This document shows, piece by piece, positions 20,746-36,495 of a DNA stretch of 64,000 nt. Each line of letters starts with the position of its first letter. Positions within the stretch are counted from its first letter, which is position 1. Source of the stretch: a virus; IMG/VR virus record IMGVR_UViG_3300031857_000027; one strand, written 5' to 3'. Under the pieces are notes generated by a model that made no database searches, was not told the DNA's origin, and was given only the letters and a program-made list of their open reading frames with translations. Both the position numbers and the translations under genes were made by a program.

Positions 20746-20753
20746 TATTTATG
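20746..20753 (-). promoter_or_regulatory. late promoter candidate (CATAAATA)
   Basis: 7/8 match to TATAAATA upstream of the 20717 start. Confidence 0.6.
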
Positions 20754-22368
20754 TTTTCTGTATATCGCTAGACAATTCGGGGTCTTTTTGAAACTTATCC
20801 GATGCCTGTTCTTGTTCTTGTTTTTTGCCCTTTGCGGCATCTCTAACAATCTGAGCCTTGCGTGATAGAGTTCTTGCTGCTGCGCTTGGATCGTCAGTGT
20901 TTTCACTCACAGACTTCCAACCACCACCCATTTCTTTGTATTTCTTCGCAGCCCAACCGTTAGCATATGCTGAAGGATATACATCAAACTTAGATTTTGC
21001 TTGTGCTTTAGCCTGCGCCCACTTCTCAGGTGATGTAGGCACATTCTTTTCTTCAAGATATTCAACATCTTCACCCATTGCTCTTTTTTGACTCTGTGTG
21101 TATTTTCTTTGTTTAACTGGTGACATAGATGCCATTGAAGCCTTTTTTCTGTCTCTTTCTACTGCACTATGATAACCACTTCTCAATCTAACTGCCTGAC
21201 CCAGATGTTCATCACCCGCTTCATCATGTCCTTTTGATCTGGCGTCTTTTCCTTTTTTTGTGGCTATTTTTGCAGCACGATCCAAAAGTGCAGGCGAAAG
21301 TTCATCAAGTTGTTCAGTCTCTTCTTTGACATGACCATACTTCTTTTTGTACCAGTCGGGCATACCACTCTTTTGACGGAAGTATCTTACTGTTGCAGAA
21401 TCGTTTGCTTGATCACGATATTTGTTTTCTGCTGTTGTATTATGGCTCTTCATTGCTTCTGCTGCTTTATGGGCATCTTTGGCAATATATTCCAATTCAG
21501 CATTCGTCTTCTTATGATACTCATGACCTTCTAGTGGATGGCGCTGTGATGGGCGACCTTCAGTGAGTTCAACTTCTTCTTTGTTGTATTTCTTTTTTAA
21601 ATACTTATCAACCTTGCGTTCGTATTCACCTTTTGGTTTCTTAGGAACAGGAGTGCCGTGTGGTGAAGGAACATATCGTTTAACTTCTTCATTCAGTTCA
21701 CCACGCAGATAGTTGGCTGCTGTAGAGATATAATCTTCAGCAAGTGTAATCTTTGATTGAACCCATTCTGGCAGATTTGTGTTTTCTTCCATCAAGTCCA
21801 TCATGTCTTGTGCATTGAACATCAGTGAACGAATTTGTGACATCGCCATATCACCTTCATAATCATACTCACGTGCATCTTTTGCTTCTTTAATTGGTGT
21901 AACAATCGTAGAAGACTTATATGGTTTTTTAACTGGTCCAGACACAAATCGTCCTTTCTTTTCTAATTGTTCATCAATCTCTGTTTCTTCAGAAACTCTT
22001 GATGCTTTCATGATACCACGAATCAGTGGTGCTTTGAGTTGCTTGTGTCTTGGAACAGCAATGTGTTCTTTTGACTTTGGATGCCCATATACATCATGGC
22101 CACCACCTGTGCGTTTCAATGTCCAACCTGATTTGCGAAGATGAGCATGAACATCACGTGTCTTCATGCTTGACTCTGGCATCTCATCAAGTTGTTCAAC
22201 TTCTTCCACTTTATATTTCTTTTTGATTTCAGATTGCTTCGCAAGTCTTTCTTTATCGTCAGAAATACCGTAAGAATGACCCAACTCTTTGTAATAGTCG
22301 GGATGTGGTAGTCCCGACTTCTTACGCAGAGCCATTTGTCGTTGATGTAATTTATCTGCGACTGACAT
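20749..22368 (-). CDS. modular putative internal head polyprotein containing a HicA-like toxin domain (22000-22167)
   Basis: Modules split by EEVEQLDE, EETEIDE, EEVELTE, EETEQLDE and EDVEYLEE; HicA pattern MKTRDV...L..SGW...R.GGGH..Y.HP......VP.H..L...L.R.IMK. Confidence 0.75.
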   Translation of the reverse strand: MSVADKLHQRQMALRKKSGLPHPDYYKELGHSYGISDDKERLAKQSEIKKKYKVEEVEQLDEMPESSMKTRDVHAHLRKSGWTLKRTGGGHDVYGHPKSKEHIAVPRHKQLKAPLIRGIMKASRVSEETEIDEQLEKKGRFVSGPVKKPYKSSTIVTPIKEAKDAREYDYEGDMAMSQIRSLMFNAQDMMDLMEENTNLPEWVQSKITLAEDYISTAANYLRGELNEEVKRYVPSPHGTPVPKKPKGEYERKVDKYLKKKYNKEEVELTEGRPSQRHPLEGHEYHKKTNAELEYIAKDAHKAAEAMKSHNTTAENKYRDQANDSATVRYFRQKSGMPDWYKKKYGHVKEETEQLDELSPALLDRAAKIATKKGKDARSKGHDEAGDEHLGQAVRLRSGYHSAVERDRKKASMASMSPVKQRKYTQSQKRAMGEDVEYLEEKNVPTSPEKWAQAKAQAKSKFDVYPSAYANGWAAKKYKEMGGGWKSVSENTDDPSAAARTLSRKAQIVRDAAKGKKQEQEQASDKFQKDPELSSDIQKT

Positions 22369-22370
22369 GA

Positions 22371-23519
22371 TTAGTCCTTCTTGGCCATTTTCGTTGCAGT
22401 TGCATACATTACCGACTTAGCACGTTCACCATAACGCTGTTTGAAACCAGAAAGACCTTTCTTCATACCCATTACGTAATCTTCTTTCTTCTTGGCTTCA
22501 CCTTTTGTTAGTTCACGTTCTTCAATTTGCTGAACACTTTCTGGCATTTCTTTTACACCAGTTGTCTTACCTGCTGCAACTTTTGGTTGTTTCTTTTTGC
22601 CTTCAAAACTTGCTTTTTGGTCTTCATACTCTTTTGTGAACTCATCGTTTGTTGGTTCTTCTGACAACGATTCTTCTTTACGAAGTTTGCTCATTACTTC
22701 GCCAGCCTTTTGTTGTTTTTGTGCTTGATATGCTCTCTCTTTTGAGATAACATCCTTTACCACACCAGCAGCACCTTTTGCAACATCCATAATACCTTCT
22801 TCAATTTCTGTTGCAACAACGCCGTTTACTTTATCTGCATCAATAACTTCAATCATTCTACCATCAATATCCATCTCTTCTGTTTCAATTGGTGCTAACA
22901 CTTTCAGACCATGCTCATTGTACAGTTCAAGCATCTCTGTGAATGATGTTGATTCGTTCACACGTGTTGAACGCTTAAAGTTTTGACGGGCACCATAGCC
23001 ACCCTTTTTCTTCGGTGCATCATCTTCATCATTGTCATCTTTGTAGTCACGCTTGTGAACTAGACCTTTTGCTGTCTTTGTGACTGAGCCATGTTCTGTT
23101 TTACCAGCATCCATGCGCTTCTTTGCATCTGCTACAGTTGGAAATGCTTCGTTCAGTTGCTCTTGTTCAGTTGCTTCAACTTCTTCGTTCTTTTTGCCAT
23201 AGAAGTTATCTTTGTACATGCGTGATGTTGCCTTACGCAGACCTTTTGTGCGATCTTTTGTCTTGTCGGCAATTGCTTTGGTCACATATGAACCAAGTGC
23301 TTTTCTGCCCGCTGGTGTATCACCAACTTCATCTAATTGCTCAACTTCTTCTTTCTTCATATCTTTTTTAGCACGTAGAAGTTTGAAGTCGTGAGCATCA
23401 ACTTTGCCATTTTTGTTGGCATCAATTTTATGCTGATTGCCTTTTAGTTGTTCTTGTTGTAGAACCTTTGCTGCTGCTTCTGCTACACTTTTCAGTGCTT
23501 TGTCATTGAAAATTGACAT
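22371..23519 (-). CDS. modular putative internal head protein
   Basis: EEVEQLDE, EQLNE, EIEE and QIEE linkers; EF-hand-like DANKNGKVDAHD; C-terminal RYG.RAKSVMYATATK. Confidence 0.65.
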   Translation of the reverse strand: MSIFNDKALKSVAEAAAKVLQQEQLKGNQHKIDANKNGKVDAHDFKLLRAKKDMKKEEVEQLDEVGDTPAGRKALGSYVTKAIADKTKDRTKGLRKATSRMYKDNFYGKKNEEVEATEQEQLNEAFPTVADAKKRMDAGKTEHGSVTKTAKGLVHKRDYKDDNDEDDAPKKKGGYGARQNFKRSTRVNESTSFTEMLELYNEHGLKVLAPIETEEMDIDGRMIEVIDADKVNGVVATEIEEGIMDVAKGAAGVVKDVISKERAYQAQKQQKAGEVMSKLRKEESLSEEPTNDEFTKEYEDQKASFEGKKKQPKVAAGKTTGVKEMPESVQQIEERELTKGEAKKKEDYVMGMKKGLSGFKQRYGERAKSVMYATATKMAKKD

Positions 23520-23544: not shown

Positions 23545-24855
23545 TTATCTTGTGACTTCTTCCCAATCCATCGATGCGTAGATATCAGAACCATTAACTG
23601 ATGCTGCCACGCATAATGTGAGTTCGAAGGGTGTATTGGTCAATCCATTTCTTTCTAATTGAAATTTGAATAGTGCTTCTCTAAGAATATCCACTGGTAT
23701 AGAACTTTGTGTAGTAGAAGTTGTAAAGCCCGATGCTAATATTCTTCCACCTGAAATTGTTGCGGCATCTAATTTATATTCAACAGCAGAATTAACTCCT
23801 GCACTTTCCCATGTTCCACCTGTTGTTGTACCACCCGCCCTGAGTTGCCAGTTATAATATGAGTTGTTAGTTAATGCTAATAAAGATAGTGCAGTAATAA
23901 TGACAATCGCATCTAATCTATCCGATTTCAATCTCAAAGAAATGAGATTATAATATGTTCCAGCAACGGCCAAATCAATTGGGCTAGTAACTGGTGTGCC
24001 TATGGCTTGCTGCGATCCAAGCAATTCATATCCACCTTCAGATATAACGGACGAGCAAATCTGTTTGAGTGTGGAATTACTTGCTGTAATACCTGTGTTC
24101 TTGATTTCATAACGCAACGGTAAAGATGCCGTTGTCATATAAGGAACAGTATTCCTATTGTCATTGTGAAATATGTGGGCAGGAACCATTTTACCATCAA
24201 CCACAAATCCACAGCGAACATCACCAACACCCAACCACTCAACATCCATCCAAAGAATATTTGTCTTACTTACATCAATGCCACCAGCATGTTCAGCACC
24301 ACCACTTTGAGATGAATAACCCGTACCGTCAAACTTGTCTATATTCCAATCTGTTTGTGCAACTTTTGTTTCTGTAATTGTTCCTGTTGTATTACTTCTT
24401 AGCACAAAATAGTTTGTTGTACCCTCATTCTCAAAATAGATACCGTTTTCGGCGCCATAATAACCAACTCTCTGACGAACATTTGCTTTAGGTGTTTCCA
24501 TAGCAAATGACGACATCATTAACAAAGACTTACCTGGTTGATATGAAAACACTCTTGTTGTTTCACGAATGACTTCAGCATTTGCTGTAGTTCCCACAGT
24601 CATCACAATCATACTTTGATTGTTTACAAAAGCATATGAACTATTTCCTGCTGTATTTGATGTTGACCACAGTCCGTTATCAGCAAAGCGATGTGTACTA
24701 TCAAAAAGAGTAAATGGTTGTGATAGACGAAGACGACCAAACGCATCTGTGATTGTACCAGATGGCGTAAGACGATCAGACATCATATTCACCTCATAAC
24801 GAGTGAATACTTGTCCTGAATCTATCTTATGTAAGTCGGTTCTAAACTGTGCCAC
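23545..24855 (-). CDS. putative virion structural protein (beta-rich)
   Basis: GTG start; DAFGRLR.S.P.TLFD and EWLGVG motifs. Confidence 0.6.
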   Translation of the reverse strand: MAQFRTDLHKIDSGQVFTRYEVNMMSDRLTPSGTITDAFGRLRLSQPFTLFDSTHRFADNGLWSTSNTAGNSSYAFVNNQSMIVMTVGTTANAEVIRETTRVFSYQPGKSLLMMSSFAMETPKANVRQRVGYYGAENGIYFENEGTTNYFVLRSNTTGTITETKVAQTDWNIDKFDGTGYSSQSGGAEHAGGIDVSKTNILWMDVEWLGVGDVRCGFVVDGKMVPAHIFHNDNRNTVPYMTTASLPLRYEIKNTGITASNSTLKQICSSVISEGGYELLGSQQAIGTPVTSPIDLAVAGTYYNLISLRLKSDRLDAIVIITALSLLALTNNSYYNWQLRAGGTTTGGTWESAGVNSAVEYKLDAATISGGRILASGFTTSTTQSSIPVDILREALFKFQLERNGLTNTPFELTLCVAASVNGSDIYASMDWEEVTR

Positions 24856-25350
24856 TTAGCAGTTCCACTTTCTCAATGCTTTATTAATACGTGAATCTGG
24901 ATCACGTGCTGTCTTTGCTGATGTTAGTCTACGCTTCATCCCACCCATTCTGGCGCAAAATGACTTACGACGATTTGCTGCCTTAGAACCTGCTTTTAGT
25001 TTACTTGGTTTCGTTGTCACAGCAGTTTGTAATTTTGAACCAGGATTTTCACGACGATATGACTCAACACCTTTTTGATTCAAACCACCTTCTGGATTTT
25101 TACCTTCTTTACGCTGCCATGCTGCAACTTCTTCTAATTGTTCTTCTGTAAGTGGACCATCATCGGCTTCATAATCTTCTTTTTTTAACTTCATCATCTT
25201 CGGCTTTGTGAATACAGGATTATCTGCACCACCAGCACCACCTTCTCTCTCTTCTCTTACGCATGAGCCTTTTGCATATGCTTTTTTACCCGGCGCTGGT
25301 TTATATCCAGGCCAACATCTTTCATCCATCAGTTGTTTGAATGATTTCAT
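24856..25350 (-). CDS. modular basic protein with CTS-like N-terminus (DUF6321-like C-terminal domain)
   Basis: MKSFKQLMDE; CWPGY; EQLEE linker; GGLN.KG...RRKSFCARM...LRKWNC. Confidence 0.65.
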   Translation of the reverse strand: MKSFKQLMDERCWPGYKPAPGKKAYAKGSCVREEREGGAGGADNPVFTKPKMMKLKKEDYEADDGPLTEEQLEEVAAWQRKEGKNPEGGLNQKGVESYRRENPGSKLQTAVTTKPSKLKAGSKAANRRKSFCARMGGMKRRLTSAKTARDPDSRINKALRKWNC

Positions 25351-28049
25351 ACGTAGTTTCTCTTTTTAAATGTTATAAGTGAGATACCTTTTTTCTTCAA
25401 TTCATCTTCTTTTTGATCACCAATTGATGCTGTCGTTTCATCACCAGTAAGTTCACTAATATTCTTAGGCACAACTTGTGTTGCTTTACCCTTTTTACTC
25501 AACTTCTCACCCATGTCTCTAGCAGGAGATTCACCAGCACCTGCCATTGAAATACCAGGTTCAATGCCTCTGTCAATCTCAGAAATTATTTCTCTTTCTT
25601 CGGCTTTCTTCTGGAAGTTTTCTTTGATGGTGGCAAGGCTGATGGTTCTTCTTCCTTCGGCAACGGGTTTGTCAAGGGCTGGTCGTTCTTTTCTTCCAGT
25701 ACCGGTTCTAACCTTACCGAGTTGTTGGGCTGACGGGGTGGAACTATTCTGTCCATAAAGTGCTTCAATCGCAGAATGATCAGGTGAATGTATTTCATGC
25801 AAGTCCTCTTTTAATTTAACAACGTATCTGTTACCAACTTTTGCTACTGTGCCATTTTTTTGGTGTGCTTCTTTTGCTGCTGAACCACGAATGTAAAACA
25901 ATCTTGTCTTACCGTTCTTGTCTGTCAATAACTTCTGTTTCTTTTGCGTTTCTTCAAACTGTTTACCAATTAACTTTGTGCCAGAAACATGTTGAATCAT
26001 TTTCCATGCTTCTTTGTGATTCTTGTTCGCAAGATGTTCTTTGAATTTTTTCTTCTGTTCTGGTGTAGCCTTCTGATGAAACTTCATGACTTCCATCATG
26101 CCAATGTTACCTTCATATGCCGCTTCACTGATCTTACCTTTGCCATAGTTTGAAACATTGATTGGCTCACCCTTGCGTTCTGGATTAGGATCATGGCGGC
26201 GTTTTGAAGCCACGGCAGCAGCACGTTCTTTCTTAGATAGTGATGCTCTCTTTTCGTTTGACATACATTTTGGTTTTGCTTCACCTGGTTCTCTGGCGCA
26301 AGGACCAATTGCTTCACCTTTGCTATTGATGCGCTTCCAGCCACCTTCTGGATCAGTTTTACTAAACCACTTACGTAAATCTTCTTTAATCATACCTCTA
26401 CCTAATGTCAGTAGATTGTAAGCACCAGCATCAGACATTGTGTTTACTTCTTCTTCCTCTGTCATCTCTTCTTCATCTGACTTGAGCAAACGAAGTGTGC
26501 GTGTGACTTCTTCTACTGTATCACCTGTAACTGATACTGTGACTGCTTCATTCATCTTGGCCATTTTGTTTTGATGTGTCTCAACAGTCTTTGCAATTTT
26601 CTCTACCGGCACTAAACTACCATGCACTGAACGATGTGTAACTTTGCCGTCTTTACCATAACGGCCAAAGCCATAATACTCTAGACCCATCTTGGACATA
26701 TCTTCATGTGTGCCAGCATCGGCATGTGGTTTCATATCAGTACGAATCGGTGCAGTATCTTTCTTACCCAACTCTGTAGCAATCCAACCTTTTGCCAAAT
26801 CATTCTTCGGTGGCTTGCCGACGAACTTTTGCATGTTTTTAAAAATGCCATCAAGTTCTTTTGTCTTTGCTTCTACAACTTCCGGTGCTGCTGTACGCAA
26901 ATCTTCTGAATTATCAAACTCAACATAGTTGTCACGAAATAGTTTACCAAACATTGGTCGTGCTGCTTGTACAGATTCCCATTTCTCTTTACGAATGTCT
27001 TCTGGCACTGTACGACCACCACGTTGACCACGTTCAATGTTTCTTTCTTTTGATACTTCGTCTGCTGTATTGACCATGACCATGGATGTTTCATAGCCTA
27101 ACTTCTCAAGCATCTCTTTGATCTTGGCATACTTTTCTGGATCATCACCAGTACCATTGATGATCAATCCATTACGACCATGAAGTGCTAAACGTTGACG
27201 CAATTCTGTAACGTTCTTTGCTCTTTTACGAACAGCATTACGTTGTGATTCTTCATTCTCTGGCATCTTCTTATCAAGGTTTTCTTTGTCCATCAGATAC
27301 TCAAGTGCTTTATCAGAATTGATTTCTGTTAGACCATGACCATCTAGTGTCTTGCTTAACACATAGTCTTTGCCTGAACCAGGACCACCACCTAGAAATA
27401 CTGCTTTGAAAATACCTTTGTCGTGTACACCCTCACGAATGATTTCTTCGTGAAGTCTCATACCTTTACGTACATCATTGAACATTTGCTTGACATGAGC
27501 ATGAGACATTGATGATGGTGCGCCTTTCTTGAATGAATCAAGATCGCCACTCTTTGCGTGTTCACGCATTTTAGAAGCAGAAATGCCAGTTACACCTTCA
27601 GCATCAGGATCACGTTCACCTGCTGAGTGTACTTTGATTTCTTTGAAGTTGAAACGGGCACCTTCATGTGTGCCATTGTACTTGTGTAGCAGTCTGTGAT
27701 ATTCTTCTGTGCGGTCAGAACCACCAACCATGTGAAGATGTGTTACACCCTTCTTGTGTAATGCTTCGGCATGGTCAAAGAATGTTGGTTTTTCTTTAGA
27801 TGCTGCTGTGAAATTCGTGCCAGAAAATGCTCTCTTGGCATGTTTGACTTTTTGATCTGCTGTAAGGGGATTCTTCTTGGCGTCCTGTGAATGTGACAGA
27901 ACGATATGATGTGAGCCGCCAACTTTATCGGCGATCTCTTTGACTTTATTGACTAGTTTTTCGTGACCGTTTGTAATCGGATTCATGCGACCAAATGCTA
28001 GGACGGCATGTTTCTCTTTCTGTTCACGTAGAAAATCTCTAAATTTCAT
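25347..28049 (-). CDS. 900-aa multidomain protein: cytidyltransferase-like (HIGH) domain, zeta-toxin-like P-loop kinase and several small modules
   Basis: FGRMNPITNGH, GSDR, ISASKMR; GGPGSGKD, NSD, INGTG, RGGR.VP; N-terminus MKFRDFLRE. Confidence 0.8.
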   Translation of the reverse strand: MKFRDFLREQKEKHAVLAFGRMNPITNGHEKLVNKVKEIADKVGGSHHIVLSHSQDAKKNPLTADQKVKHAKRAFSGTNFTAASKEKPTFFDHAEALHKKGVTHLHMVGGSDRTEEYHRLLHKYNGTHEGARFNFKEIKVHSAGERDPDAEGVTGISASKMREHAKSGDLDSFKKGAPSSMSHAHVKQMFNDVRKGMRLHEEIIREGVHDKGIFKAVFLGGGPGSGKDYVLSKTLDGHGLTEINSDKALEYLMDKENLDKKMPENEESQRNAVRKRAKNVTELRQRLALHGRNGLIINGTGDDPEKYAKIKEMLEKLGYETSMVMVNTADEVSKERNIERGQRGGRTVPEDIRKEKWESVQAARPMFGKLFRDNYVEFDNSEDLRTAAPEVVEAKTKELDGIFKNMQKFVGKPPKNDLAKGWIATELGKKDTAPIRTDMKPHADAGTHEDMSKMGLEYYGFGRYGKDGKVTHRSVHGSLVPVEKIAKTVETHQNKMAKMNEAVTVSVTGDTVEEVTRTLRLLKSDEEEMTEEEEVNTMSDAGAYNLLTLGRGMIKEDLRKWFSKTDPEGGWKRINSKGEAIGPCAREPGEAKPKCMSNEKRASLSKKERAAAVASKRRHDPNPERKGEPINVSNYGKGKISEAAYEGNIGMMEVMKFHQKATPEQKKKFKEHLANKNHKEAWKMIQHVSGTKLIGKQFEETQKKQKLLTDKNGKTRLFYIRGSAAKEAHQKNGTVAKVGNRYVVKLKEDLHEIHSPDHSAIEALYGQNSSTPSAQQLGKVRTGTGRKERPALDKPVAEGRRTISLATIKENFQKKAEEREIISEIDRGIEPGISMAGAGESPARDMGEKLSKKGKATQVVPKNISELTGDETTASIGDQKEDELKKKGISLITFKKRNYV

Positions 28050-28081: not shown

Positions 28082-28096
28082 TATTTAGTATTTAGT
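28082..28096 (-). promoter_or_regulatory. tandem late promoter candidates (ACTAAATA twice)
   Basis: Two overlapping copies upstream of the 28049 start. Confidence 0.6.
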
Positions 28097-35003: not shown

Positions 35004-35284
35004 TATCCCCTCGTCAATTGCAATACTTTTTGCATTTGTTTCTCAATAATTGGACCACGATTTGGCCAATGAATGTATGGTTGACTTGCTGTCTTGTACA
35101 GATTTGTCAGAAATGGCATAATGATCTTTTCTACTTGCTGAAGTCTTGCTTTATACTCTTCAACAGTTTCATCTTTCTCCGCAATGACTGCTTGATATTC
35201 AACTTCATCAACTGTGCTGAAACCAAAATCATCATCACCATACTCTGCTAAAATTTTATTGATGTCGTAACTCATTTGTCCCAT
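35003..35284 (-). CDS. hypothetical protein
   Basis: DFGFS...PFL.NL...YIHWPNR pattern. Confidence 0.6.
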   Translation of the reverse strand: MGQMSYDINKILAEYGDDDFGFSTVDEVEYQAVIAEKDETVEEYKARLQQVEKIIMPFLTNLYKTASQPYIHWPNRGPIIEKQMQKVLQLTRG

Positions 35285-36495
35285 GCCTTCTGTGCGTTAA
35301 AGTTTTGTCTGCTGAACTCAAGTCTATCTACCAGTTTCAATGCTTTACCAAGATGATCAACAGCAACGAAACCTTCTGGTGCAGTAATACGGAAGCCATC
35401 GTCAGTGCGAACAAATGTGCCAATGCTCTTGATAGTTTCCAACTTACGAATGATCATCAACTTAGCATCAACAATCAGATTCATTAGATCAAATATTTGT
35501 TTCAGTTGAATCGCATTTGAACGATAGAAACGCATCACTTCATTTTTCTCTTTGATGCGTTTTTGTTTTGTGTCTTCTTTCTTTGCTGCCAGAATTTCTT
35601 TGTTCAGTTTTGCTTCTACGTAGTTAATTAACTCTTGTGTATGAACTCTGGTGTCAGCAATCTTTTTGCCTTCACGAACTTTCGTGTTGTTGAATGTTTT
35701 GATCTGTGTAAGAAAAACATCCGATGCAGCAATACGATTCAATGTCAATGCAGGTATCGTGTTGAAAACTCTACCTGCGTTTGAAAGAATAGATGTGATT
35801 GCTGCTGTCTCTTCTTCAGTAAACGTGACAGAACCAGACGCATCAGTAAACGATGCATCACGAAACCAAACATCTTTTGTAGTCTTTAAATGACCAATAT
35901 CAATGTTGAATGATGCTTTCATTGTCTCTAATGTTTTACCGGAGTATGATGTGTGAAACACCACACCAATCTGTGCCGCTAACATTGTTTGTGCTAACTT
36001 TGATTTTACTGGCACAGCATATACGATTGTGTTTGGCTGAAAGATAATATATTCTTCACCCGCAATAGTTTCTTTTTTGATGTCGCCTTTGCTGAACATC
36101 ATGTCGCCTTGCAAAACACCTTTGATGCCCAACTTAGGCAAGAATGCCAATGCAAGTTTGAGTTTTTGATTTAAACCCTCACCAGGATGATTTTCGTCAA
36201 TGTCTTCATCAGTATAATTCAATTTTGCATTTTTTGCAAATACTGATTTCGTACCAACGAAAAATTTACCGTTTTCTGGATTTGTGCCAGCAAAGATAGC
36301 AGGCGCACCATCCCATTTTGTAGTCACATTTAATTTTGAGCCTGTGTGACCAGCAAGCATATTGCGTAAAGAACGGAGAAATTCTATTGCTTCACGTGCG
36401 CCCGATACACCGGCGTTTAATACATTATCTTCAAGATGTTCAAGGTGAACATTCTTGCCTTCTTTACTCTCTTTTATGTAATCCATGAATTTCAT
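35272..36495 (-). CDS. DUF6267-like protein, putative ligase/nucleotidyltransferase fold, CTS-like N-terminus
   Basis: HLEHLED; KWDG (motif I), QGD, EGFV (motif IV), KLVDR (motif V); starts MKFMDYIKE. Confidence 0.65.
   Translation of the reverse strand: MKFMDYIKESKEGKNVHLEHLEDNVLNAGVSGAREAIEFLRSLRNMLAGHTGSKLNVTTKWDGAPAIFAGTNPENGKFFVGTKSVFAKNAKLNYTDEDIDENHPGEGLNQKLKLALAFLPKLGIKGVLQGDMMFSKGDIKKETIAGEEYIIFQPNTIVYAVPVKSKLAQTMLAAQIGVVFHTSYSGKTLETMKASFNIDIGHLKTTKDVWFRDASFTDASGSVTFTEEETAAITSILSNAGRVFNTIPALTLNRIAASDVFLTQIKTFNNTKVREGKKIADTRVHTQELINYVEAKLNKEILAAKKEDTKQKRIKEKNEVMRFYRSNAIQLKQIFDLMNLIVDAKLMIIRKLETIKSIGTFVRTDDGFRITAPEGFVAVDHLGKALKLVDRLEFSRQNFNAQKAWDK

What the first reader, a model, noticed from the sequence alone, without database searches (positions are those of the whole stretch)
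22000..22167. HicA-like mRNA interferase embedded between two protease-type linkers, with no HicB antitoxin
Seen: residues 68-123 of the 539-aa ORF (MKTRDVHAHLRKSGWTLKRTGGGHDVYGHPKSKEHIAVPRHKQLKAPLIRGIMKAS) follow the HicA pattern and retain the G-x-H catalytic His. They are flanked closely by EEVEQLDE and EETEIDEQLE. No hicB-like gene is visible in the window. Inference: the toxin is latent while fused, released during head maturation and injected, either to cut host RNA at entry or to titrate host HicB or a defence system. A toxin activated by capsid maturation would be an unusual control mode.
Basis: partly seen in the sequence, partly recalled or inferred. Interest (0 to 1): 0.85.

Follow-up and report, generated by a model that had tools for sequence, protein, structure and literature searches.

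The report
Phage head-cargo polyprotein carrying HicA
An uncultured freshwater T4-like phage carries a genuine HicA RNase-toxin domain, with no antitoxin, inside a chain of small basic modules joined by linkers that look like cut sites of its own head protease, so the toxin is probably packed in the capsid, cut free and injected, though this has not been measured.

Summary
Residues 68-123 of the 539-aa ORF (window 20749-22368, minus strand) are a true HicA domain: Pfam 35.3 bits against a cut-off of 27, an AF2 model matching solved HicA structures at 1.1 Å, and Gly89/His91 aligned with the functionally required Gly22/His24. No HicB is found in the 133-kb contig or in two complete relatives.

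The protein consists of six basic modules joined by five acidic E-E-x-E-x-L-x-E linkers (0.025 expected by chance), all predicted disordered. In 87 diverse HicA-carrying proteins, the residue before the module is Glu in 87/87 and the residue two before it is L/I/V/M in 86/87. This fits the (L/I)-x-E↓ rule of the T4 gp21 protease, which this phage encodes.

Elsewhere the same module follows T4-like capsid-targeting leaders. One example is a complete 214-kb relative, where it occupies the position of the neighbouring 164-aa gene.

Best reading (confidence about 0.55): capsid cargo comparable to T4 internal proteins, cut free by the prohead protease and delivered with the DNA.

"Latent while fused" and "titrates HicB" are unsupported. 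This protein itself lacks an N-terminal leader.

The scan has reported the same kind of polyprotein on at least six other genomes. I found no paper describing it.

The parts
20749..22368 (-). 539-aa modular protein (p539): six basic modules joined by five acidic linkers
   Evidence: ORF. More than 4000 homologs, nearly all with a HicA Pfam hit. Module and linker charges. Beads-on-a-string AF2 model, pTM 0.27.
22213..22368 (-). Module M1 (aa 1-52), three predicted helices. It has no T4-like CTS at its N-terminus.
   Evidence: Relatives carry 14 extra residues, MSDKPKKYFSAMRE, before the equivalent of Ser2.
22183..22212 (-). Linker 1, KVEEVEQLDE (aa 53-62). Predicted cut after L-D-E62.
   Evidence: Logo from 87 diverse carriers: E at -1 in 87/87, L/I/V/M at -3 in 86/87. 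pLDDT below 50 over 56-64.
22000..22182 (-). HicA module (aa 63-123): MPESSM N-terminal extension followed by the alpha-beta-beta-beta-alpha core.
   Evidence: Pfam 35.3 bits. AF2 model and Foldseek hits to HicA structures.
22096..22098 (-). Codon of His91, the putative catalytic histidine. Gly89 lies two residues before it.
   Evidence: Aligned with His24 and Gly22 of B. pseudomallei HicA. Their functional role is described in PMC3969222. His91 is invariant in 53 relatives and at least 90% conserved in 150 diverse relatives.
21961..21999 (-). Linker 2, RVSEETEIDEQLE (aa 124-136). Predicted cut after I-D-E133.
   Evidence: Among 120 close relatives the site reads [ILMV]-[DEGQKN]-E, with a variable middle residue and an invariant Glu. 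It lies at the start of the pLDDT<50 stretch 126-172, although DSSP draws a low-confidence helix over residues 128-137.
21583..21960 (-). Module M3 (aa 137-262), helical EYDYEGDM...PEWVQSKITLAEDY unit.
   Evidence: The same unit forms the C-terminal part of a CTS-headed 179-aa protein (MKTFKQLREE...) of the cultured cyanophage S-H9-1.
21559..21582 (-). Linker 3, KEEVELTE (aa 263-270).
   Evidence: pLDDT below 50 over 260-281.
21331..21558 (-). Module M4 (aa 271-346), GRPSQRHPLEGHEYHKK... unit.
   Evidence: Found separately in dozens of IMG/VR loci (L049-L081).
21301..21330 (-). Linker 4, VKEETEQLDE (aa 347-356).
   Evidence: Alignments to seven relatives stop exactly at residue 356. pLDDT below 50 over 344-353.
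21079..21300 (-). Module M5 (aa 357-430), helical, net charge +10.
21049..21078 (-). Linker 5, MGEDVEYLEE (aa 431-440).
   Evidence: pLDDT below 50 over 431-441.
20752..21048 (-). Module M6 (aa 441-539), YPSAYANGWAAKKYK..GGGW unit.
   Evidence: phrog_27331. Also present in the S-BM3 protein SBM3_00185.
22371..23519 (-). 382-aa sister polyprotein, which also contains EEVEQLDE (aa 57-64).
   Evidence: Syntenic with p539 in 57 of 78 related loci.
23545..24855 (-). 436-aa virion structural protein in the same gene string.
   Evidence: phrog_1645, E 6.5e-137. 57% identical to proteins annotated 'virion structural protein' in cyanomyovirus records.
24856..25350 (-). 164-aa protein with the T4-CTS-like start MKSFKQLMDE and a C-terminal DUF6321.
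   Evidence: In the complete relative G002, the protein at this position is CTS + HicA + DUF6321.
25347..28049 (-). 900-aa protein starting MKFRDFLRE, with cytidylyltransferase-like and zeta/AAA_33 kinase domains followed by small modules.
   Evidence: A homolog (P0168, 865 aa, MKFTDFLTE) carries the HicA module at residues 764-828.
28082..28095 (-). Two tandem CTAAATA heptamers about 35 nt upstream of the 900-aa gene. Possible late-type promoter (weak evidence).
   Evidence: The heptamer is not enriched in the window overall, so this is only a lead.

Best explanation
The 539-aa protein is capsid cargo of a T4-like freshwater myovirus. It is the polyprotein counterpart of T4's internal proteins.

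Proposed mechanism:
1. It is made from a conserved gene string that includes a virion structural protein.
2. It is built into the prohead core.
3. The phage's gp21-type prohead protease cuts it after the Glu of each E-E-x-E-x-(L/I)-x-E linker.
4. The short acidic linker peptides leave the capsid. The basic modules stay with the DNA.
5. One of these modules is a free, roughly 70-residue HicA RNase (about residues 63-133) with its catalytic Gly89 and His91.
6. The modules enter the next host cell with the genome. There the HicA module most likely cuts host RNA during the first minutes of infection.

No antitoxin would be needed. The producing cell is already doomed, and the toxin is aimed at the next cell.

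Shown here: the HicA fold and catalytic residues; the absence of HicB; the linker motif and its conservation pattern; the protease gene; and T4-like targeting leaders on relatives and neighbours.

Inferred: cleavage, packaging, injection, RNase activity and its target.
For: 1. HicA identity. Pfam match above the cut-off. AF2 core at pLDDT 81-87. Foldseek top hits are all HicA, with TM 0.83 and rmsd 1.1 Å to 6g26. His91 and Gly89 align with His24 and Gly22, the residues whose mutation abolishes toxicity. His91 is invariant in 53 relatives and at least 90% conserved in 150 diverse ones.

2. Protease. The contig encodes a Peptidase_S77 (gp21-type) protease at 122 bits, phrog_207 E 1e-72. It sits between portal and scaffold/major head genes. 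Four of five large related contigs encode it too, including both complete genomes.

3. Cut-site pattern. There are five linkers against 0.025 expected. In 87 representatives sharing no more than 50% identity, the residue before the module is Glu in 87/87 and never Asp. Position -3 is L/I/V/M in 86/87. Position -2 varies (D59, E12, N4, S3, Q2). The downstream site in close relatives reads [ILMV]-x-E with a variable middle residue. In T4, CTS residues 8 and 10 govern processing and Asp at position 10 blocks it (PMC9026906). T4 Alt is cut at ITE-6 and LTE-619 (PMC5694885).

4. The linkers are module junctions. Homology to seven relatives ends exactly at LDE-356. All five linkers lie in stretches with pLDDT below 50. 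Modules are net +4 to +10 and linkers net -3 to -5.

5. Targeting leaders on HicA carriers.
- The T4 CTS is MKTYQEFIAE (PMC8442874).
- Single-module HicA proteins of about 80 aa start MLTFKEFIAE, MKSFKDFLHE or MLSFKEFISE.
- P0168, P0203 and P0235 are CTS-headed polyproteins that carry the module.
- In the complete 214-kb relative, the gene between the p900 and p436 homologs reads MKSFTQFINE-EVEILDE-HicA-EEVELDE-DUF6321.
- In this window, the neighbouring genes start MKSFKQLMDE and MKFRDFLRE.

6. A 219-aa protein lies between the portal and protease genes, at the position of T4 genes 67/68. It starts MKSLLEFKSIVE and contains EEVELEE.

7. Conserved context. The order p900-p164-(p436 virion protein)-p382-p539-p192-p132 recurs in dozens of viral contigs.

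8. No HicB is present in the contig, in two complete relatives or in 101 HicA-carrying proteins.
Against: - There is no experimental evidence of any kind. No cultured phage in the held collection carries the module, so no virion proteome can be consulted.
- p539 itself has no CTS-like N-terminus. It begins where relatives continue after a 14-residue leader, MSDKPKKYFSAMRE. The commonest form among close relatives also lacks that leader.
- The conserved E-E-V-E part of the linker goes beyond the T4 (L/I)-x-E rule and is unexplained.
- Late timing is not shown. TATAAATA is absent near the genes, and CTAAATA is not enriched in the window.
- A conserved His is compatible with RNase activity but does not prove it.
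- An injected non-specific RNase would also threaten the phage's own early transcripts.
Confidence: 0.55

Rival explanations
1. The protein is packaged and processed as proposed, but the HicA-fold module is not a toxin. It would serve as a basic nucleic-acid-binding internal protein that neutralises charge on the packed DNA, as T4 IPs do, or protects the incoming DNA.
For: All six modules are net basic and the linkers acidic. The HicA fold is dsRBD-like (PMC3969222). T4 internal proteins are basic and contact DNA phosphates (PMC3012670). Relatives of p539 in G003 and G005 lack the HicA module, so it is dispensable.
Against: Gly-x-His and the P-R-H histidine are kept across 150 diverse carriers. 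Simple charge neutralisation would not require this.
Confidence: 0.15
2. The protein is not packaged. It is a cytoplasmic multidomain protein of the infected cell, its acidic linkers are only flexible spacers, and HicA degrades RNA inside the producing cell.
For: p539 has no N-terminal CTS. No virion data exist. Late expression is not shown.
Against: A mere spacer would not keep Glu (never Asp) at -1 in 87/87 cases and a hydrophobic residue at -3 in 86/87. It also would not explain T4-like CTS leaders directly in front of the same module, or the same motif in a protein encoded between the portal and protease genes.
Confidence: 0.15
3. The module acts as a decoy or binder. It would titrate a host HicB-like antitoxin or a defence component rather than cutting RNA.
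For: None specific. The only basis is that HicA domains bind HicB in known systems (6g26).
Against: Sequestering host HicB would free a host toxin, which would harm the infection. Conservation of the catalytic His is not needed for binding.
Confidence: 0.05
4. It is an ordinary toxin-antitoxin or addiction module whose antitoxin is unrecognised or lies in the missing quarter of the genome.
For: The contig is about 75% complete.
Against: Two complete relatives carrying the module have no HicB. None of 101 carrier proteins contains a HicB domain. The module is always embedded or CTS-headed, never part of a bicistronic pair.
Confidence: 0.04

Closest known systems
Phage T4 internal proteins IPI, IPII, IPIII and Alt (capsid targeting sequence plus gp21 processing; injected with the DNA)
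   Same: The phage has a gp21-type S77 protease. Neighbouring genes and homologs carry T4-like leaders (compare MKTYQEFIAE with MLTFKEFIAE and MKSFKQLMDE). Predicted cuts follow (L/I)-x-Glu. The mature pieces are basic. The cargo is diverse and fast-shuffling.
   Different: Here many cargo units are strung into one polypeptide and separated by internal cut-site linkers, rather than one leader per protein. The cargo includes a toxin-family RNase domain. This particular protein lacks the leader. Nothing has been shown biochemically.
HicAB type II toxin-antitoxin systems (E. coli, B. pseudomallei, Y. pestis, S. pneumoniae HicA)
   Same: The Pfam family, the dsRBD-like fold, and the conserved Gly-x-His and P-x-H motifs are shared.
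   Different: There is no HicB and no bicistronic operon. The domain is embedded in a 539-aa phage protein and has a conserved six-residue extension (MPESSM or MPGANM) after the predicted cut.
Polyvalent proteins of phages and conjugative elements (Iyer et al. 2017, PMC5512222)
   Same: These are long multidomain proteins of mobile elements, proposed to be delivered with the DNA and in some cases processed by proteases.
   Different: That survey does not mention HicA, cyanophage-type phages or CTS-derived linkers. The modules here are mostly tiny basic units of unknown fold, and the protease is the prohead protease.
Processed ejection/inner-body proteins of giant phages (phiKZ, 201phi2-1, SPN3US)
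   Same: Head proteins are cut after Glu at short motifs by a gp21-related protease, with several sites per protein (PMC5694885).
   Different: The motif differs (A/S/G-x-E) and so does the phage lineage. No HicA cargo has been reported there.

Membership tests
HicA toxin domain family (Pfam PF07927) | Profile match above the curated cut-off | tested here: met
   35.3 bits against 27. 40.7 bits in the six-frame search.
HicA toxin domain family (Pfam PF07927) | dsRBD-like alpha-beta-beta-beta-alpha fold | tested here: met
   AF2 secondary-structure order and pLDDT 81-87. Foldseek hits to 6g26, 1whz, 4c26, 4p78, 5yrz and 6hpb.
HicA toxin domain family (Pfam PF07927) | Conserved Gly and His in the beta1-beta2 turn (Gly22/His24 of B. 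pseudomallei HicA) | tested here: met
   Gly89 and His91 align with them. At least 90% conserved in 150 relatives.
HicA toxin domain family (Pfam PF07927) | mRNA interferase activity and toxicity | not testable with these tools
   Requires expression and RNase assays.
HicAB type II toxin-antitoxin system | Cognate HicB antitoxin gene next to hicA | tested here: not met
   No PF15919 or PF05534 match in the contig. None above cut-off in two complete relatives. None in 101 carrier proteins.
HicAB type II toxin-antitoxin system | Small stand-alone toxin of about 60-90 aa | tested here: not met
   The domain is embedded at residues 63-133 of a 539-aa protein.
T4-type capsid-targeted, gp21-processed internal proteins | The phage encodes a gp21-type (S77) prohead protease | tested here: met
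   122 bits at G000:C1:19429-19899. phrog_207 E 1e-72.
T4-type capsid-targeted, gp21-processed internal proteins | N-terminal capsid targeting sequence resembling MKTYQEFIAE | tested here: not met
   p539 starts MSVADKLHQRQ. The feature is met by neighbours p164 and p900 and by HicA carriers elsewhere.
T4-type capsid-targeted, gp21-processed internal proteins | (L/I)-x-Glu sites at the boundaries of the mature piece | tested here: met
   LDE62 and IDE133. Conservation pattern across 87 and 120 relatives. Actual cleavage is not testable here.
T4-type capsid-targeted, gp21-processed internal proteins | Presence in the virion and entry into the host with the DNA | not testable with these tools
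   No cultured phage carries the module.
Polyvalent proteins (Iyer et al. 2017) | Several conflict-related domains in one polypeptide of a phage or plasmid | tested here: inconclusive
   HicA is the only recognisable domain in p539. Other carriers add Zeta_toxin, ADP-ribosyltransferase, HD and SfsA domains. The paper does not list HicA.

The most novel reading that the evidence does not exclude
T4-like phages of lakes and oceans load their capsids with protease-cleavable polyproteins whose linkers derive from internalised capsid-targeting leaders. One of the shuffled cargo cassettes is an antitoxin-free HicA RNase. It would be released only inside the sealed prohead and fired into the next host cell as a pre-made weapon against host or defence RNA.
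Probability: 0.4. Interest if true: 0.8.

Novelty: new variant of a known kind. Interest (0 to 1): 0.62.

Why it matters
If this reading is true, a classic bacterial toxin domain has been repurposed as virion cargo. It would be controlled by compartmentation and a maturation protease rather than by an antitoxin.

It would also extend the T4 internal-protein paradigm from single leader-tagged proteins to shuffled polyprotein arrays. These arrays are very common in environmental phages: more than 4000 homologs and more than 550 viral contigs.

The work gives concrete, testable predictions: exact neo-termini, P1 Glu dependence and His91 dependence. It also points to a large pool of small unknown modules that may be injected effectors or anti-defence proteins.

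Tried and rejected
- Cultured carriers. A tblastn of the module against 50,697 phage records found only four weak hits (33-37% identity) to unrelated phage records and nothing T4-like. No virion proteome can therefore be consulted.
- Literature. 'HicA' with 'capsid targeting sequence' returned 0 papers. The polyvalent-protein survey does not mention HicA. A search on cyanophage internal or core proteins found nothing relevant.
- Late promoters. TATAAATA occurs once in the window and not near these genes. ATAAATA and CTAAATA are not enriched. Only a tandem CTAAATA pair upstream of the 900-aa gene remains as a lead.
- Expression. Two freshwater metatranscriptome runs hold short contigs of relatives (mostly 90-96% identical) over parts of p382 and p539, for example 22101-22493. 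DNA carry-over cannot be excluded, and contigs show neither level nor strand. This is not used as evidence.
- Frameshift idea. I considered joining p382 and p539 by a frameshift. p539 has its own AAGGA ribosome-binding site and ATG, 2 nt after the p382 stop, so this was rejected.
- Core-protein naming. The 219-aa and 153-aa proteins between portal and protease have no informative PHROG match. Their equivalence to T4 gp67/gp68 rests on gene position only.
- Complex prediction was not used. An enzyme-substrate pair with a short linker is outside what that test judges well.
Full report
**What is at the coordinates.** The finding lies on the minus strand. window:22000-22167:- encodes residues 68-123 of a 539-aa ORF (20749-22368, minus strand), and the quoted peptide is exact.

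The window is part of a 133-kb IMG/VR virus contig estimated to be about 75% complete. The contig has a T4-type head gene block:
- portal (phrog_213);
- two small acidic/basic proteins;
- a gp21-type prohead protease (Peptidase_S77 at 122 bits; phrog_207 E 1e-72);
- scaffold (phrog_237);
- major head protein (phrog_138).

The major head protein is about 65% identical to those of cyanomyoviruses (Kyanoviridae). Near-identical DNA occurs in lake-water and freshwater metagenomes from several studies. One lake run holds many pieces at 99% identity or more. This is therefore an uncultured freshwater T4-like myovirus.

**Is it HicA?** Yes.
- Pfam HicA_toxin matches residues 71-122 at 35.3 bits, against a cut-off of 27. 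PHROG phrog_353 'toxin' matches at E 3.7e-11.
- An AF2 model of residues 55-140, built on 150 diverse relatives, has a helix-strand-strand-strand-helix core at pLDDT 81-87 and flanks below 50.
- The best Foldseek hits in the PDB are all HicA proteins: 6g26 (TM 0.83-0.85, rmsd 1.1 Å), 1whz, 4c26, 4p78, 5yrz and 6hpb.
- The histidine of G-G-H is His91. In the alignment to 4c26, which is the H24A mutant, it falls on position 24, and Gly89 falls on Gly22.
- G22C and H24A are the two changes that abolish the toxicity of B. pseudomallei HicA (PMC3969222).
- Gly89, His91, His96-Pro97 and Pro106-Arg107-His108 are invariant in 53 relatives. Their equivalents are at least 90% conserved in 150 diverse carriers.

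**No antitoxin.** Neither HicB profile matches the contig, even at E ≤ 1. Because the contig is incomplete, I also checked two complete relatives with terminal repeats (172 kb and 214 kb). Each carries exactly one HicA module. Neither has a HicB match above cut-off. The only signal is a 15-bit match interrupted by three stop codons. None of 101 HicA-carrying proteins contains a HicB domain.

**The flanks are one recurring linker.** The protein contains E-[ED]-x-E-x(0-1)-[LIMV]-x-E five times: EEVEQLDE at 55-62, EETEIDE at 127-133, EEVELTE at 264-270, EETEQLDE at 349-356 and EDVEYLEE at 433-440. Shuffled sequences give 0.025 occurrences, and none of 20,000 shuffles reached five.
- The six segments between the linkers are net basic (+4 to +10). 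The linkers are net acidic (-3 to -5).
- In a full-length AF2 model (pTM 0.27, separate folded islands), every linker falls in a stretch with pLDDT below 50.
- Alignments to seven relatives with different C-terminal halves stop exactly at residue 356, the Glu of LDE. The linkers are therefore the junctions at which modules are exchanged.

**The module is a shuffled cassette.** The whole protein has more than 4000 homologs and more than 550 matching viral contigs.
- An exhaustive search with the 70-residue module found it at every possible position, from residues 8-77 to 764-828, in more than 100 proteins of 200-1100 aa. These proteins share no more than 50% identity with each other. Bacterial-type stand-alone HicAs appear only at much weaker scores.
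- In 87 such carriers the eight residues before the module read E-E-V-E-Q-[L/I]-[D/E]-E. Position -1 is Glu in 87/87 and never Asp. Position -3 is L/I/V/M in 86/87. Position -2 varies (D59, E12, N4, S3, Q2). A conserved M-P-G-A-N-M follows.
- In 120 close relatives the downstream site reads IDE, IEE, IGE, IQE, IKE, VNE, MDE or LDE. The first residue is hydrophobic, the middle is free and the Glu is fixed.

**Why this points to the prohead protease.** T4 gp21 cuts C-terminal to Glu. Alt is cut at ITE-6 and LTE-619 (PMC5694885). In the IPIII leader, residues 8 and 10 (Ile, Glu) govern processing, and Asp at position 10 blocks it (PMC9026906). The pattern seen here has a hydrophobic residue at P3, any residue at P2, and a strict Glu at P1 even within an Asp-rich context. 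A protease constraint predicts this pattern; a mere flexible spacer does not.

The phage has the protease, and so do four of five large related contigs. A 219-aa protein encoded between portal and protease, at the position of T4 genes 67/68, starts MKSLLEFKSIVE and contains EEVELEE. The scaffold protein has 14 [LI]-x-E sites against 6.4 expected. p539 has 10 against 4.4.

**Why this points to the capsid.** The T4 capsid targeting sequence is MKTYQEFIAE (PMC8442874). Residues 4 and 7 are needed for targeting. Among the HicA carriers:
- Single-module proteins of about 80 aa begin MLTFKEFIAE, MKSFKDFLHE, MLSFKEFISE, MLSFKEFIVE or MITFLQYIQE.
- Longer carriers begin MKFTDFLTE (P0168, a homolog of the neighbouring 900-aa protein, with HicA at 764-828), MKTFKDFMAE or MKKFKDFIGE.
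- Some keep a leader internally, directly after the module, such as 'MLSFKEFITE' in P0241. This looks like two leader-tagged genes fused into one.

The clearest case is the complete 214-kb relative. There the gene between the p900 and p436 homologs encodes MKSFTQFINE-EVEILDE-HicA-EEVELDE-DUF6321. This is the position of the window's 164-aa gene, which itself starts MKSFKQLMDE and ends in DUF6321. The window's 900-aa gene starts MKFRDFLRE.

The order p900-p164-(p436)-p382-p539-p192-p132 recurs, all on one strand, in dozens of contigs. p436 belongs to a family annotated as virion structural protein. The cultured cyanophage S-H9-1 has a 179-aa protein with the leader MKTFKQLREE whose C-terminal part is module M3 of p539.

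Other carriers of the HicA module add Zeta_toxin, ADP-ribosyltransferase (the activity of T4 Alt), HD and SfsA domains.

**What is weak.**
- Nothing has been measured.
- No cultured phage in the collection carries the module.
- p539 itself has no leader. It starts MSVADKL..., at the point where relatives continue after MSDKPKKYFSAMRE. Its own targeting would have to rest on module M1, on co-assembly, or on something unknown.
- Late expression is not established.
The module's neighbours vary freely, so there is no conserved in-cis inhibitor.
- 'Titrating HicB' has no support either.
- The RNA target is unknown.

**Comparison and novelty.** The closest known system is the T4 set of internal proteins and Alt: a leader, gp21 processing and injection. 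The differences are the polyprotein format with internal cut-site linkers, the toxin-family RNase as cargo, and the lack of a leader on this protein. As a domain it is a member of the HicA family. It is not a HicAB system, because the antitoxin and the operon are absent. I found no paper describing HicA as virion cargo or these linker polyproteins.

The scan itself has reported the same kind of polyprotein on at least six other genomes, with the same reading. That shows it is widespread. It is not independent proof. I rate it a new variant of a known kind, at interest 0.62.

Noticed in passing
window 25347-28049 (-): The 900-aa protein starts with the CTS-like leader MKFRDFLRE. It contains a cytidylyltransferase-like domain (phrog_3041, E 1.5e-62) and a Zeta_toxin/AAA_33 P-loop kinase domain, followed by small modules. 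It appears to be a second, enzyme-bearing candidate cargo polyprotein.
   Followed up: partly
window 22371-23519 (-), residues 24-49: The first module of the 382-aa sister polyprotein has a sub-threshold EF-hand/dockerin-like calcium-loop motif (DANKNGKVDAHDF), immediately before its EEVEQLDE linker.
   Followed up: no
window 35272-36495 (-): The 407-aa protein also starts with a CTS-like leader, MKFMDYIKE. I checked only the N-terminus.
   Followed up: partly
window 23545-24855 (-): The 436-aa virion structural protein (phrog_1645) is shared at 57-61% identity with cyanomyoviruses and also with Puniceispirillum phage HMO-2011, whose genome is only 55 kb. The family has therefore moved between very different phage types.
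   Followed up: no
L028:2369-2896 (complete 214-kb relative): A 175-aa protein reads CTS - EVEILDE - HicA - EEVELDE - DUF6321. It is the most compact natural construct for testing packaging and cleavage.
   Followed up: yes
window 21327/23327 and 20997/22182: Contigs from a lake DNA run and from an RNA-library run join p382 directly after its LDE-64 to linker 4 of p539. They also join LDE-62 of p539 to a point in M6. These look like relatives that recombined at the linkers, but the flanking matches are short (25-26 nt), so this is only a hint (table 5).
   Followed up: no
G000:C1:17937-19026 (outside the window): Two small proteins lie between the portal and protease genes. One starts MKSLLEFKSIVE and contains an EEVELEE site. 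The other has an acidic N-terminal half rich in [LIV]-x-E sites and an extremely basic C-terminal half. They are likely prohead-core proteins, assigned by gene position only; the first has only a weak match (E 2.6e-4) to a PHROG of unknown function, and the second has no match.
   Followed up: partly
L083:2660-4150: On another contig, a CTS-headed 83-aa HicA (MLTFKEFIAE...) sits next to a 385-aa DUF5824/DUF6321 protein and a ferritin-like gene. HicA and DUF6321 modules therefore travel together in single-gene form as well.
   Followed up: partly
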